A DNA stretch of 64,000 bases, taken from the human T2T-CHM13v2.0 reference genome, Homo sapiens. Below, one piece after another: positions 15,033 through 28,874 of this stretch (its first letter is position 1; each line of letters opens with the position of its first letter). Both the position numbers and the translations under genes were made by a program. Where the stretch lies: the NCBI RefSeq assembly GCF_009914755.1, contig NC_060925.1; one strand, 5' to 3'. The notes under the pieces are model-generated. The model made no database searches. It saw only the letters and a list, made by a program, of their open reading frames with translations, and had not been told where the DNA came from.

Positions 15033-15299
15033 CTGAGCAAAGGGGTCTGGTAAGGACAGAGCTGGAGCTCTGGCTGGTGGGATTCCTGGCAGTGCAGTGA
15101 TAGCTCTCACTTTCCCCAGATATCCAGGGGACACTGAGAGTGGTCCCCCCATGGGACACAACTGCCCCATGACTAGGAGGCTCCCAGCTGTTCTGCACAT
15201 TCTCTCCAGCCTGTTCCAGGGAGCAGGCCAGGGTGATGAAGCAGGTCCCATCCTTCATGATCTGGGAGCTGGCAAAGATGTTCAACTCCTACAGCATCT
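15033..15299 (-). pseudogene. SLAM pseudogene exon 5 (second C2-set Ig domain)
   Basis: cttggttcag|EML*ELNIFASSQIMKDGTCFITLACS..SW..YHCTARNPTSQSS..LCSG|gtaatg; 267 nt; parallels LY9 exon 5 (270 nt); one in-frame TAG. Confidence 0.9.
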
Positions 15300-15403
15300 C
15301 TGAACCAAGAAGGGAAAGCTTGAGCTATGAGAAGGCTCTGGTCTGGCCAAACAGGGTAGAGGAAAGCTCAATTTCAAATGTGGGGCCCTCCAGCCCTCCT
15401 TAC

Positions 15404-15733
15404 CATAGACAAGCAGGGTGAAATCCCTGGTGATAATGATTGAGGAAGTATGCAGAGTTACCCAGGCTTATAGGCTTATAGTCCTGCAGCCTCAGGGGGC
15501 TGATCTGAAGAGAGTAGCTGTGGTGGGGAATGTTCAGTCATCCACTGTAGGGTCCCTGAGTCTCAGAAACCAGAACTGGTTTGTCTGTTCATCCTTGTTG
15601 TAAAACAGCAACACGCTCTCAAGAGCTCCATGTAACACTTTCTACCTCTTGCTCTGCTGGGACCTCCAGGGGCCAAGTGGCCAACTCCCCAAGGATATCT
15701 TCCCCACTGTATCTTCTCCCAGTGTTCCTGACC
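15404..15733 (-). pseudogene. SLAM pseudogene exon 4 (second V-set Ig domain)
   Basis: tctacag|..ILGELATWPLEVPAEQEVESVTW..SYSLQISPLRLQD..RDFTLLVY-G|gtaagg; three TGA stops plus frameshifts. Confidence 0.85.
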
Positions 15734-16037
15734 CTGTAGACAAAGAAGAGAACCCACAACCTCAGTGTCAGTGTCTCCCCACCTAGTCAGGAAAGCCACA
15801 GGCTCCATCCAGCTCCTCCTGTGTGAGTCCCTCCAGCCTCCCCACCAGCTCCAGTGGGTCTTCTCCTCCCACTGCCATGACCACACAGACCAACACCCAC
15901 CCACCCCAGACTCCCACCCTCCCAATGGTGTTAGCCCCCTTGCCCCAGGGTCTGAAGGGAACCAGGACTTCTTCTTCCACCCTCCCTGTCAACCCCAGAG
16001 CTGCTCAGGCCCCTGGGCAGACTGAGGAGCCTGGTAC

Positions 16038-16324
16038 ATATGCAGAAGTGAGGCACTGAGATAGGGTGGGAGCTGCTGTTACTGAATGGGTTCTTGACCA
16101 TGCAGGTAAAAGTTAGAGCACTGTCCCCAAGCCTCAAGGAGACACTGAGGACAGACCCTCCACAGGACACAACAACAGTCTGGGGTCCCAGGGGTGTCCA
16201 GCTGTAAGTCACACTGCCTCCTCTGCTCTCTGCCACACATGTCAATGGCATATGAGAGTGACAATGCAGCATCCATCCTCACTAATCCTGGAGCTCAGTG
16301 TGACATGAGGCCAGGCCAGCTGCT
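16038..16324 (-). pseudogene. SLAM pseudogene exon 3 (first C2-set Ig domain)
   Basis: cacacag|EQLAWPHVT..CIVTL(fs)LTCVAESRGGSVTYSWTPLG..GDSALTFTCMVKNPFS..HFCI|gtacc; parallels LY9 exon 3 ([21 protein letters not shown]). Confidence 0.9.
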
Positions 16325-27200: not shown

Positions 27201-27853
27201 AATGGCAACAAAAGCCAAAATTGACAAATGGGATCTAATTAAACTAAAGAGCTTCTGCACAGCAAAAGAAACTACCATCAGAGTGAACAGGCAACCCACA
27301 AAATGGGAGAAAGTTTTTGCAACATACTCATCTGACAAAGGACTAATATCCAGAATCTGCAATGAACTCAAACAAATTTACAAGAAAAAAACAAACAACC
27401 CCATCAAAAAGTGGGTGAAGGACATGAACAGACACAGGAACACTTTTACACTGTTGGTGGGACTGTAAACTAGTTCAACCATTGTGGAAGTCAGTGTGGT
27501 GATTCCTCAGGGATCTAGAAACAGAAATACCATTTGACCCAGCCATCCCATTACTGGGTATATACCCAAAGGACTATAATTCATGCTGCTATAAAGACAC
27601 ATGCACACGTATGTTTACTGCGGCACTATTCACAATAGCAAAGACTTGGAACCAACCCAAATGTCCAACAATGATAGACTGGATTAAGAAAATGTGGCAC
27701 ATATACACCATGGAATACTATGCAGCCATAAAAAATGATGAGTTCATGTTCTTTGTAGGGACATGGATGAAATTGGAAATCATCATTCTCAGTAAACTAT
27801 CGCAAGAAGAAAAAACCAAACACCGCATATTCTCACTCATAGGTGGGAATTGA
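24203..27853 (+). pseudogene. L1 ORF2p (endonuclease/RT), disrupted
   Basis: EN N-terminus [21 protein letters not shown] motif FADD, C-terminus IGGN*; stops at 25130 and 26407, a frameshift, and an internal deletion near 27435. Confidence 0.95.
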
Positions 27854-28674
27854 ACAATGAGAACACATGGACACAGGAAGGGGAACATCACACTCTGGGG
27901 ACTGTTGTGGGGTGGGGGGAGGGGGGAGGGATAGCATTGGGAGATATACCTAATGCTAGATGACGAGTTAGTGGGTGCAGCGCACCAGCATGTCACATGT
28001 ATACATATGTAATTAACCTGCACATTGTGCACATGTACCCTAAAACTTAAAGTATAATTAAAAAAAAAAGAACAGAACGTGCTGGTTTTCTCCTGATGGA
28101 GAATAAAAGTGAAAGCTTGAAACTCTGGAGACTAAGAGCAGAACCTGTCCCCTCATCATGAATATCTCAAGATCTGTGTTCCCCTAGCCTCCAAGTCCCA
28201 GGCCCATCCCCCTGTCATCTGTCAGGTTCTTAGAGGTGAGCAGTGAGAATCCACAGGGACAGGAATTACCAGTGTGCCAGGCTTGAGCTCCCCCACTGAA
28301 ACCACTTATGGGACATGAAAGGCCCAACTCAGGGTGAAGGGTGACTCCCAGCGGCTGGCAGGAGAGGGAGGAAGGGGAAAGAGATGCAAGAGAACCAGAT
28401 ACAAAACACAAATCCCAAGGCACTACATCACCACAGGTCTTTAAAAACCTGGACATCTCTGGAAACATGACTGAAATGACATGCTGCAGACTACATGCGT
28501 CTTGGAACTGACTGTGGCTGATCCTCCATCTCATGCCTCCACAATTCAGCCTCTCTGGAAATGCTCAGGCTCCTTGTGATACATTAGTCAAAGAGATGTG
28601 AGGGTCACAAGGACACCGTCTAGAGCTGCGTGACCTGAGGTTATAGCACATGCGCACAGACTTACGCACCCACG

Positions 28675-28712
28675 CGCACGTGCGCACACATACACACACA
28701 CACACGCACACA
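28675..28712. repeat. Imperfect (CA)/(CG) purine-pyrimidine repeat
   Basis: Direct read. Confidence 0.8.
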
Positions 28713-28825
28713 CAGAGCCTGGCTCCCATAGAGGCAGCACCTCAATGAAAATTGCACATTCCTAGAGTAAACCAGTGTACGCAGCAAATAGACGAGCCTG
28801 GGAGGCAGTGGAGGGGTGGACTTAC

Positions 28826-28874
28826 CTATGAAAAGACCAAGGAGGAGCAACAACCATGGTAGAGAATGGGCCAT
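28826..28874 (-). pseudogene. SLAM pseudogene exon 1 (signal peptide)
   Basis: ATG..MAHSLPWLLLLLGLFI-G|gtaagtccac; 49 nt, phase 1; the donor context ggtaagtccac is identical to that of LY9 exon 1. Confidence 0.8.

What the first reader, a model, noticed from the sequence alone, without database searches (positions are those of the whole stretch)
15033..28874. Dead four-Ig-domain SLAM receptor gene, head-to-head with LY9
Seen: five minus-strand phase-1 exons, a leader (28826-28874), V (18936-19324), C2 (16038-16324), V (15404-15733) and C2 (15033-15299). They retain splice sites and SLAM motifs (SW, D-x-G-x-Y, CxxxNP) and carry several stops and frameshifts. Known: LY9 is the only four-domain member among the nine human SLAMF receptors. 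Domains 1-2 resemble SLAMF9 as I recall it (ISNLSWED, GDSAL..TC..NP) more than they resemble LY9. Inference: this is an ancient separate V-C2-V-C2 SLAM gene, lost in the human lineage and possibly intact in other mammals (a unitary pseudogene, a 'tenth SLAMF').
Basis: partly seen in the sequence, partly recalled or inferred. Interest (0 to 1): 0.8.

Follow-up and report, generated by a model that had tools for sequence, protein, structure and literature searches.

The report
Dead tenth SLAM gene beside LY9
Between SLAMF7 and LY9 the human genome carries the broken but still transcribed remains of a four-domain SLAM-family immune receptor gene that is intact in many other placental mammals, so it is missing from human immunology.

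Summary
Five minus-strand exons sit at the stated coordinates, each with AG/GT borders.

Spliced together, the six exons align end to end with about 450-aa predicted proteins from ruminants, pig, camels, whales, bears, mustelids, seals, moles, elephants, manatee, tenrec, aardvark, sloth, anteater, squirrels, beaver and jerboa. A half-length model exists in tarsier. These proteins are labelled 'SLAM family member 9-like' or 'Ly-9-like'.

- **Orthology:** these proteins hit the pseudogene exons best in the whole human T2T genome (55-74% identity, against 45% or less for the other SLAM-family genes matched).
- **Phylogeny:** all four human domains fall inside the ortholog clades (support 98-100). 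A dead LY9 copy is rejected (AU p=0.0011).
- **Damage:** the human copy has about six frameshifting indels and five or six premature stops. One indel is a perfect 37-nt tandem duplication.
- **What survives:** the ATG, all splice sites and the native stop. The copy is transcribed as lncRNA LOC105371470.
- **Intact protein:** it ends in a roughly 25-residue hydrophobic tail with no cytoplasmic signalling motifs.

No anthropoid, mouse or rat ortholog appeared in the protein searches. The only literature trace found is a sheep atlas note naming a probable ortholog 'LY9L'. The deep origin relative to LY9 and SLAMF9 is unresolved.

The parts
28826..28893 (-). Exon 1. It holds the 5' UTR and the leader (signal peptide) coding part at 28826-28874. 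The ATG is intact and the donor is GTAAGT. It is also exon 1 of lncRNA LOC105371470.
   Evidence: hub annotation.
18936..19324 (-). Exon 2, first V-set Ig domain (V1), 389 nt. Lesions: a 1-nt deletion near 19273, a 37-nt duplication, and a 1-nt insertion near 19042 followed by TAG at 19041-19039. The curated lncRNA skips this exon.
   Evidence: It is sister to tarsier V1 (95/86) inside the ortholog V1 clade (100/99).
19168..19244 (.). Perfect 37-nt tandem duplication inside V1 (2.1 copies, 100% match). It shifts the frame and looks young.
16038..16324 (-). Exon 3, first C2-set Ig domain (C2_1), 287 nt. It carries a frameshifting insertion of about 8 nt around 16248-16270 and an in-frame 3-nt insertion near 16176. 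The last 80 codons are open. The curated lncRNA skips this exon.
   Evidence: It is 71-74% identical to orthologs and lies in the ortholog C2a clade at 100/100.
15404..15733 (-). Exon 4, second V-set Ig domain (V2), 330 nt. Lesions: a deletion of about 10 nt around 15682-15700, three TGA stops (15621, 15591, 15540), and a frameshift at 15468-15480. It is exon 2 of the lncRNA.
   Evidence: It lies in the ortholog V2 clade at 98/96.
15033..15299 (-). Exon 5, second C2-set Ig domain (C2_2), 267 nt. It has one TAG at 15291-15289, then 85 open codons. It is exon 3 of the lncRNA.
   Evidence: It lies in the ortholog C2b clade at 100/99.
12944..13017 (-). It encodes about 24 residues carrying the conserved LRKEF-hydrophobic tail and has no lesion. 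The native stop TAG is at 12946-12944.
   Evidence: 64-76% identity to 8 of 8 ortholog tails.
11795..12943 (-). 3' UTR, the rest of the lncRNA's last exon. An AATAAA signal lies at 11830-11825, about 30 nt before the annotated transcript end.
   Evidence: hub annotation.

Best explanation
This is a transcribed unitary pseudogene. It is the human remnant of a distinct four-Ig-domain SLAM-family gene: leader, V, C2, V, C2 and a short hydrophobic tail, in six phase-1 exons. Here I call the gene LY9L, or 'gene X'.

The gene already existed in the common ancestor of placental mammals, lying divergently next to LY9. Many orders keep it as an open reading frame of about 450 aa. In the lineage leading to humans it lost constraint and accumulated about six frameshifting indels and five or six premature stops.

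Its promoter, splice sites and polyadenylation signal still work. The locus is therefore now read out as the non-coding RNA LOC105371470, which joins the leader, V2, C2_2 and tail exons.

Shown here:
- the exons and their lesions;
- the full-length match to orthologs;
- the clade membership of all four domains;
- the rejection of an LY9-copy origin;
- the absence of any better or intact copy elsewhere in the human genome.

Inferred:
- the time of loss, probably tens of millions of years ago, in stem anthropoids or already in stem haplorhines;
- the function of the intact protein. I take it to be a lymphocyte-surface adhesion or co-receptor molecule without its own signalling tail, possibly GPI-anchored like CD48.
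For: **Exon anatomy.** Every border is AG/GT. The tail exon and the native stop are retained.

**Ortholog hits.**
- The human C2_2 query gave 26 hits among 57 candidates, at 61-78% identity. All named hits (25 of 26) were non-primate placentals.
- The profile of 7 orthologs gave 142 hits, of which 120 were listed. By my count about 49 are of this gene (48-100% identity to the squirrel query). True LY9 of many mammals, human included, follows at 30-41%.

**Reciprocal search.** Searching the whole T2T genome, the best four hits of two orthologs are exactly the four Ig exons. The next hits are LY9, SLAMF7, SLAMF9 and CD84 at 47% identity or less.

**Trees.**
- The human V1, V2, C2a and C2b domains lie inside the ortholog clades at 100/99, 98/96, 100/100 and 100/99. 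The LY9 clades are separate at 99-100.
- In the concatenated tree both ortholog clades have 100/100 support, and human groups with tarsier at 99/88.
- The dead-LY9-copy topology is rejected: delta lnL 47.8, AU p=0.0011.

**Evidence that the orthologs are functional.**
- 14 full-length ORFs span Cetartiodactyla, Carnivora, Glires, Afrotheria and Xenarthra.
- 187 of 447 alignment columns are at least 90% conserved, including the four cysteines of each C2 domain.
- The AF2 model of the pig protein has four beta-sandwich domains with mean pLDDT 75.8.
- Its best rigid match is the SLAMF6 structure 2if7: TM 0.80, rmsd 3.2 A.

**Synteny hint.** The manatee gene X and LY9 models carry the same 1,826,051-bp scaffold length. 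Squirrel, pig and elephant pairs each share a chromosome length.

**Expression.** Sheep 'LY9L' (ENSOARG00000008993) sits in a T-lymphocyte co-expression cluster (passages read).

**Relaxed constraint.** The human read-through keeps 158 of 183 (0.863) of the columns conserved in other orders. The 20 intact orthologs, each scored with its own group left out, keep 0.876-0.950.
Against: - **Ortholog quality.** The orthologs are computer-predicted gene models. I had no ortholog DNA, so I ran no dN/dS test and made no direct check of their exon structure or their position next to LY9.
- **Absence in other species.** Absence in anthropoids, lemurs, mouse and rat rests only on their not appearing in three capped protein searches. 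No genomic intervals were inspected.
- **Modest erosion.** Human amino-acid erosion is only slightly below the functional range (0.863 against a minimum of 0.876). The loss need not be very old.
- **Pfam.** The two open human stretches do not reach Pfam significance alone.
- **Unresolved origin.** Three AU tests fail to reject the alternatives: half 2 with LY9 half 2 (p=0.414); the two halves of X as each other's sisters (p=0.176); a stem-placental duplication from LY9 (p=0.238).
- **GPI anchorage.** The hydrophobic run of the tail is only 10-13 residues, against 19 in CD48. GPI anchorage is therefore uncertain.
Confidence: 0.9

Rival explanations
1. It is a dead-on-arrival or lineage-specific duplicate of LY9, made by inverted tandem duplication in primates and never functional.
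For: It has the same V-C2-V-C2 layout as LY9 and lies 6.3 kb from the LY9 start in divergent orientation. At full length, LY9 is the next-best protein family.
Against: - Identity to the window's own LY9 is only 29-46%, against 55-74% to non-primate orthologs.
- All four domains lie in clades separate from LY9 with 98-100 support.
- The constrained topology is rejected at AU p=0.0011.
- Orthologs are present in Afrotheria and Xenarthra.
Confidence: 0.02
2. The locus is no longer just debris. The pseudogene has been exapted as a functional lncRNA, for example one that regulates LY9 or SLAMF7 from the shared divergent promoter region. Its retained splice sites would reflect selection on the RNA.
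For: - All twelve splice signals, the ATG, the native stop and the poly(A) signal survive despite about 11 coding lesions.
- RefSeq curates a spliced transcript (NR_188635.1) and marks a silencer at 28462-28654 beside exon 1 (hub annotation).
Against: - Splice dinucleotides are few sites and can survive by chance.
- The V1 and C2_1 exons keep perfect splice sites yet are skipped by the curated transcript.
- No paper mentions the locus (0 hits for LOC105371470).
- No conservation or expression data were available here.

This reading is compatible with the main explanation rather than opposed to it.
Confidence: 0.12
3. The gene was already decaying in the placental ancestor, and the 'intact' models in other mammals are annotation artefacts stitched over pseudogenes.
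For: - Many models are partial or have odd ends. Camel, tenrec, one elephant isoform (X2) and one polar-bear isoform (X4) have different C-termini. Tarsier has only the first half.
- Names are automatic '-like' labels.
Against: - 14 independent full-length ORFs of 444-454 aa (498 and 475 in two models with longer predicted N-termini), from five orders, have the same domain order.
- 17 of 21 examined models share the same conserved tail.
- Cysteines and tryptophans are invariant.
- Intact orthologs keep 0.876-0.950 of columns conserved in other orders.
- Sheep, cattle and ibex transcriptome papers list such genes as expressed (passages read).
Confidence: 0.03

Closest known systems
LY9 (SLAMF3, CD229), the neighbouring gene in the window
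   Same: - It has the same four-domain V-C2-V-C2 ectodomain, with one phase-1 exon per domain.
- It is adjacent at 1q23 in divergent orientation.
- At full length it is the next-best family after the orthologs.
- Half 1 of gene X is sister to LY9 half 1 plus marsupial Ly-9-like on moderate support (92/79).
   Different: - Identity is only 29-46%, and each domain forms a separate, fully supported clade.
- LY9 continues into a transmembrane exon and a long cytoplasmic tail with tyrosine motifs (window CDS translated).
- Gene X ends about 25 residues after the last Ig domain.
SLAMF9
   Same: - Its V exon is the best-scoring human paralog for a generic gene-X V profile (104.9 bits) and for the V1 profile (89.7 bits).
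- NCBI's pipeline names many orthologs 'SLAM family member 9-like'.
- It groups just outside the X-half-1/LY9-half-1 pair (91/84).
- From general knowledge, not tested here, SLAMF9 also lacks ITSM signalling motifs.
   Different: - It has two Ig domains, not four.
- It lies about 0.8 Mb away (chr1:159.09 Mb against 159.91 Mb).
- For C2_1, LY9 C2a scores higher than SLAMF9 (88.5 against 76.4 bits).
CD48 (SLAMF2), the GPI-anchored SLAM member
   Same: The gene layout at the 3' end is the same. The last C2 exon is followed by a terminal exon of about 25 codons that starts with small residues and ends in a hydrophobic stretch and a stop. There is no cytoplasmic domain.
   Different: - It has two domains.
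- It is very distant in sequence (C2 scores 21.6-24.5 bits).
- The CD48 tail has a 19-residue uncharged run at the very C-terminus. Gene X has 10-13 residues followed by 2-5 residues that include charges.
Sheep 'LY9-like' (LY9L, ENSOARG00000008993), Clark et al. 2017, PMC5626511
   Same: The paper describes a gene with partial hits to Ly-9 that is distinct from the 'true' LY9. At the time it had no Ensembl orthologues, and it sat in a T-lymphocyte co-expression cluster (passages read). It is probably the sheep ortholog, matching P0006 and P0035.
   Different: I could not match the Ensembl identifier to the protein sequences. The paper does not describe the family-wide distribution, the domain structure or the human pseudogene.
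SLAMF6-like pseudogene at chr1:161.79 Mb (probably the one annotated as SLAMF6P1; that name is recalled, not checked)
   Same: It is another broken SLAM-family V plus C2 exon pair in the human genome, with one TGA.
   Different: It groups with SLAMF6 (100/99 for V; 100/98 concatenated), not with gene X. It has two domains only and lies outside the window.

Membership tests
SLAM family (CD2/SLAM subgroup of the Ig superfamily) | Location in the SLAM gene cluster at 1q23. | tested here: met
   The hub annotation places the window between SLAMF7 and LY9/CD244. Genome hits map SLAMF1, 5, 6, 7, 8 and 9 nearby.
SLAM family (CD2/SLAM subgroup of the Ig superfamily) | A V-set domain without the canonical intradomain disulfide, followed by a C2-set domain with four conserved cysteines. 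| tested here: met
   - No invariant or near-invariant cysteine appears in V1 or V2 of the 20 orthologs.
- C153, C159, C203 and C223, and C358, C364, C407 and C426, are invariant or near-invariant.
- The human exons keep the corresponding C2 motifs.
SLAM family (CD2/SLAM subgroup of the Ig superfamily) | One phase-1 exon per Ig domain after a leader exon. | tested here: met
   Exon borders and phases are shown. The spliced exons align colinearly with the orthologs.
SLAM family (CD2/SLAM subgroup of the Ig superfamily) | Significant sequence and fold similarity to solved SLAM receptors. | tested here: met
   - Human C2_2 against SLAMF6 2if7 gives E=5.4e-7.
- The pig ortholog model against 2if7 gives TM 0.80, rmsd 3.2 A and 30% identity.
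- C2_1 alone was weak (SLAMF6 E=0.3, CEACAM1 E=0.0017).
SLAM family (CD2/SLAM subgroup of the Ig superfamily) | Cytoplasmic ITSM (TxYxxV/I) motifs that recruit SAP/EAT-2. These are present in SLAMF1 and SLAMF3-7 but not in CD48, SLAMF8 or SLAMF9 (general knowledge). | tested here: not met
   Orthologs end 17-27 residues after the last Ig domain, with no tyrosine motif. The feature is not universal in the family, so membership is not excluded.
LY9 orthologue or recent LY9 duplicate | Domains nest within the LY9 clade. | tested here: not met
   The clades are separate at 98-100 support. The constrained tree is rejected at AU p=0.0011.
Unitary pseudogene | Disabling mutations in a gene that keeps its introns (so it is not processed), with no intact copy in the same genome. 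| tested here: met
   There are about six frameshifts and five or six stops. The six exons are spread over 17 kb. Whole-genome protein searches find no other copy above 47% identity.
Unitary pseudogene | A functional ortholog in other species. | tested here: met
   Full-length ORFs occur in at least 14 species of five orders, with conserved residues. Function itself is inferred from ORF conservation and published expression lists, not assayed.
Unitary pseudogene | The ortholog lies at the syntenic position. | tested here: inconclusive
   Only indirect evidence is available. Manatee X and LY9 models share the same 1.83-Mb scaffold length, and squirrel, pig and elephant pairs share chromosome lengths. 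No mammalian genomes other than the human one could be read with these tools.
GPI-anchored protein (like CD48) | A C-terminal signal: a small-residue omega site, a short polar spacer and a terminal hydrophobic stretch, with no cytoplasmic domain. | tested here: inconclusive
   The tail fits the order: small residues, a spacer that includes LRKE, then a hydrophobic run. The run is only 10-13 residues and is followed by charged residues, against 19 in CD48. The AF2 helix at 436-452 has low confidence. No GPI predictor or assay was available.

The most novel reading that the evidence does not exclude
Placental mammals ancestrally had a tenth SLAM-family receptor. It was a four-Ig, tail-less molecule, GPI-anchored or shed, expressed on T-lineage cells from a promoter region shared with LY9. 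It acts as a ligand or decoy for itself or for LY9 rather than as a signalling receptor.

The gene is still used by livestock, carnivores, afrotherians, xenarthrans and many rodents. It was lost independently in the primate lineage leading to humans and in murine rodents. That would explain why human- and mouse-centred immunology, and gene-loss screens anchored on those two genomes, never saw it.
Probability: 0.35. Interest if true: 0.75.

Novelty: new member of a known kind. Interest (0 to 1): 0.62.

Why it matters
The SLAM family is usually described as nine genes. That count comes from human and mouse, where these receptors control T, B and NK cell cooperation and serve as drug and virus targets.

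This locus shows that the placental set included one more member, still intact in pig, cattle, sheep, camels, bears, mustelids, elephants and others. Results from those species cannot be mapped one-to-one onto the human family.

It also reassigns a human 'uncharacterized lncRNA' to a clear origin as the transcript of a dead receptor gene. And it gives a datable gene-loss event in primate immune evolution.

Finally, it illustrates a blind spot. A gene missing from both human and mouse is invisible to ortholog pipelines anchored on them. This last point is my inference, not a tested claim.

Tried and rejected
- **Genome search by alignment.** I used single orthologs instead.
- **Literature searches that found nothing relevant.**
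  - 'LOC105371470': 0 papers.
  - 'SLAMF10': 1 paper, judged irrelevant from its search listing and not opened.
  - 'SLAMF' + 'unitary pseudogene': 0.
  - SLAM family + pseudogene + LY9 + evolution: 7 papers, none about this locus judging by title and abstract.
  - SLAM phylogeny terms: 0.
  - SLAMF9 + SLAMF8 + LY9 + orthologs + 'lost in': 0.
- **AL121985 lead.** I recalled this clone name as a possible GENCODE label. The only descriptive passage refers to a CD48-antisense transcript, so I dropped the lead.
- **Missing paralog V exons.** My HMM did not find the V exons of SLAMF1 and CD48 in 30 kb fetched for each gene. Those two V domains are absent from the V tree and the concatenated tree. 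SLAMF1 and CD48 are absent altogether from the concatenated tree.
- **Weak single-exon searches.** C2_1 alone against PDB gave only weak hits. Pfam on the two open human stretches gave nothing.
- **Foldseek.** The top hits of the four-domain model were generic multi-Ig proteins with rmsd of 19-38 A. Only 2if7 superposed well.
- **Unnamed fragments.** P0123-P0126 were checked as possible primate sequences. They read as pig-, ruminant- or cetacean- and squirrel-like.
- **Faulty column.** The 'within V1-C2a span' column was faulty (it equals the whole-length value), so I ignored it.
- **Deep origin.** Three AU tests left it open.
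Full report
**1. Observation**

Each is bounded by a canonical acceptor AG and donor GT, and the leader begins with an ATG. The quoted motifs are present in the expected frames.

A frameshift-aware alignment of the spliced exons to three full-length orthologs runs colinearly from the leader to the stop.
- The acceptor at 13017 is also the acceptor of the lncRNA's last exon.
- It opens a 24-codon tail that is 64-76% identical to 8 of 8 ortholog tails tested.
- The tail ends at a TAG (12946-12944), about where orthologs stop (exactly so in bear and sloth).
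- An AATAAA at 11830-11825 precedes the annotated transcript end.

**2. Lesions**

| Exon | Lesions |
|---|---|
| V1 | 1-nt deletion near 19273; perfect 37-nt tandem duplication at 19168-19244 (period 37, 2.1 copies, 100% match); 1-nt insertion near 19042 with TAG at 19041-19039 |
| C2_1 | Frameshifting insertion of about 8 nt around 16248-16270; in-frame 3-nt insertion near 16176 |
| V2 | Deletion of about 10 nt around 15682-15700; three TGA codons (15621, 15591, 15540); another frameshift at 15468-15480 (one of three alignments also reads a TAA there) |
| C2_2 | One TAG (15291-15289), followed by 85 open codons |
| Leader, tail | Undamaged |

That makes about six frameshifting indels and five or six premature stops. 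The curated lncRNA NR_188635.1 joins the leader, V2, C2_2 and tail exons (hub annotation). It is therefore the transcript of the dead gene.

**3. What the gene is**

The open part of human C2_2 retrieved 26 proteins among 57 candidates at 61-78% identity. They come from ruminants, camels, whales, sloth, squirrels, beaver, jerboa, elephant shrew and aardvark. They are named 'SLAM family member 9-like' or 'Ly-9-like' and are up to 475 aa long.

A profile of seven full-length proteins found 142 proteins, of which 120 were listed. By my reading of the table, about 49 rows belong to this gene. They add pig, bears, walrus, seals, stoat, badger, elephant, manatee, tenrec, tamandua, mole, desman, spiny mouse (partial) and tarsier (285 aa). 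True LY9 of many mammals, including human, chimpanzee, gorilla and three New World monkeys, follows at 30-41% identity.

A third search used the tarsier V1-C2a region. It returned 52 hits among 401 candidates.
- Tarsier was the only primate.
- Four unnamed fragments read as pig-, ruminant- or whale- and squirrel-like.
- No anthropoid, lemur, mouse or rat member appeared in any of the three searches. This is absence from predicted proteomes, not proof of absence from the genomes.

**4. Orthology**

I searched the complete human T2T genome with the squirrel protein and with a xenarthran-like protein.
- The best four hits were exactly the four Ig exons of this locus: 59-62%, 71-74%, 67-68% and 48-55% identity, with E down to 1e-32.
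- LY9, SLAMF7, SLAMF9, CD84, SLAMF6 and SLAMF1 exons followed at 47% identity or less.
- There is no second copy in the human genome.

I pulled human V and C2 exons of the other SLAM genes from the genome. I then built maximum-likelihood trees with the ortholog domains and with LY9 of eight placentals and three marsupial-type sequences.

| Tree | Size | Result |
|---|---|---|
| V tree | 61 rows, 118 columns | Human V1 is sister to tarsier V1 (95/86) inside the ortholog V1 clade (100/99). Human V2 is inside the ortholog V2 clade (98/96). |
| C2 tree | 63 rows, 94 columns | Human C2a and C2b lie in the ortholog clades at 100/100 and 100/99. |
| Concatenated V+C2 halves | 54 rows, 210 columns | Both ortholog clades have 100/100 support. 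Human groups with tarsier at 99/88. |

The LY9 domains form their own clades at 99-100 support. Forcing the human second half into placental LY9 costs 47.8 log-likelihood units and is rejected (AU p=0.0011).

**5. Deep origin is unresolved**

Domain-specific profiles score every paralog similarly: 75-96 bits, against 118-152 for the human exons and 173-216 for the ortholog scored (pig).
- SLAMF9 V is the best human paralog for V1 (89.7 bits, against 82.0 for LY9 V1).
- LY9 C2a beats SLAMF9 for C2_1 (88.5 against 76.4 bits).

The concatenated tree gives (SLAMF9,((marsupial half 1, LY9 half 1) 94/83, X half 1) 92/79) 91/84. Half 2 of X is left unplaced.

AU tests reject none of three scenarios:

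| Scenario | AU p |
|---|---|
| X half 2 with LY9 half 2 | 0.414 |
| The two halves of X as sisters | 0.176 |
| A stem-placental duplication from LY9 | 0.238 |

The gene is at least as old as the placental ancestor, because it is present in Afrotheria, Xenarthra, Laurasiatheria and Euarchontoglires. Whether it is older cannot be said. SLAMF1 V and CD48 V could not be found and are missing from these trees.

**6. The intact protein**

Twenty orthologs align with 62% mean column identity.
- The four cysteines of each C2 domain are invariant or nearly so. There is no conserved cysteine pair in the V domains, which is the CD2/SLAM pattern.
- Pfam finds Ig_3, Ig_2 and V-set in the orthologs.
- An AlphaFold model of the pig protein has four beta-sandwich domains (mean pLDDT 75.8, pTM 0.42).
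- Its only good rigid match is SLAMF6/NTB-A 2if7: TM 0.80 on the target, rmsd 3.2 A, 30% identity.

Seventeen of 21 models end with the same 17-27-residue tail. It consists of small residues, a spacer with LRKE, a 10-13-residue hydrophobic run, and two to five more residues. The remaining four have other ends.

There is no transmembrane-length segment, no cytoplasmic domain and no tyrosine motif. The layout resembles the terminal exon of CD48, whose hydrophobic run is 19 residues.

I infer a surface molecule without its own signalling tail. It is possibly GPI-anchored (about even odds), otherwise secreted.

Published expression evidence, from passages read only:
- Sheep 'LY9L' sits in a T-lymphocyte co-expression cluster (PMC5626511).
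- A 'Ly-9-like' transcript is higher in the blood of ibex that recovered from mange (PMC11600671).

I could not tie these identifiers to my sequences.

**7. When it died (inference)**

The human read-through is 63-67.5% identical to 11 full-length orthologs, which average 70% among themselves.

At columns conserved in the other orders, the 20 intact orthologs keep 0.876-0.950 when their own group is left out. Human keeps 0.863 (158 of 183) and the tarsier half-model 0.856 (83 of 97).

Erosion is therefore real but modest. Tarsier looks as relaxed as human and lacks the second half in both of its models.

Using recalled primate indel and substitution rates, not computed here, about seven or eight indels in 1.36 kb suggest a few tens of millions of years. 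I place the loss in stem anthropoids or stem haplorhines, with low precision. The perfect 37-nt duplication must be much younger than the first lesion.

**8. Prior knowledge**

Nine literature searches found no paper on the human locus and none describing a tenth SLAM member.
- The sheep atlas note is the only description found. 'LY9L' occurs in that work alone.
- RefSeq annotates the human locus as an uncharacterized lncRNA (hub annotation).
- I could not search subscription journals, GENCODE or HGNC, so an existing annotation cannot be excluded.

**9. Verdict**

This is a new member of a known kind: a transcribed unitary pseudogene of a conserved but essentially unstudied SLAM-family gene.

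Noticed in passing
Outside the window: G000 chr1:161789544-161789894 (+) and 161790287-161790769 (+); loci L005, L017, L027, L032: This is a second broken SLAM-like V plus C2 exon pair, about 1.9 Mb distal to the window. Its V exon groups tightly with SLAMF6 V (100/99). Its C2 exon carries one TGA and scores much better against the gene-X C2a profile (74.7 bits) than SLAMF6's own C2 does (39.8 bits). It is probably the pseudogene annotated as SLAMF6P1; that name is recalled, not checked.
   Followed up: partly
window 19168-19244: A perfect 37-nt tandem duplication (100% match, 2.1 copies) lies inside an otherwise old pseudogene exon. It is young relative to the other lesions and is a candidate human or ape polymorphism.
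   Followed up: partly
window 18936-19324 and 16038-16324: The V1 and C2_1 exons keep canonical AG/GT splice sites, yet the curated lncRNA transcripts skip them. Those transcripts join the leader directly to V2.
   Followed up: no
Proteins P0048, P0055 and P0047: Marsupial 'Ly-9-like' four-domain proteins (581-602 aa) group with placental LY9 in both halves (94/83 and 93/85). The three searches retrieved no marsupial member of the gene-X clade.
   Followed up: partly
Outside the window: G000 chr1:156319762-156320118 (+), locus L044: This is a weak V-set-like match with one TGA (E=0.35 to the ortholog protein; 30.4 bits to the V profile). I did not examine it.
   Followed up: no
Proteins P0049 and P0050 (tarsier): Both tarsier models have an open V1-C2a half and then run into unrelated sequence. 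The second half of the gene may be broken, or it may be missing from that assembly.
   Followed up: no
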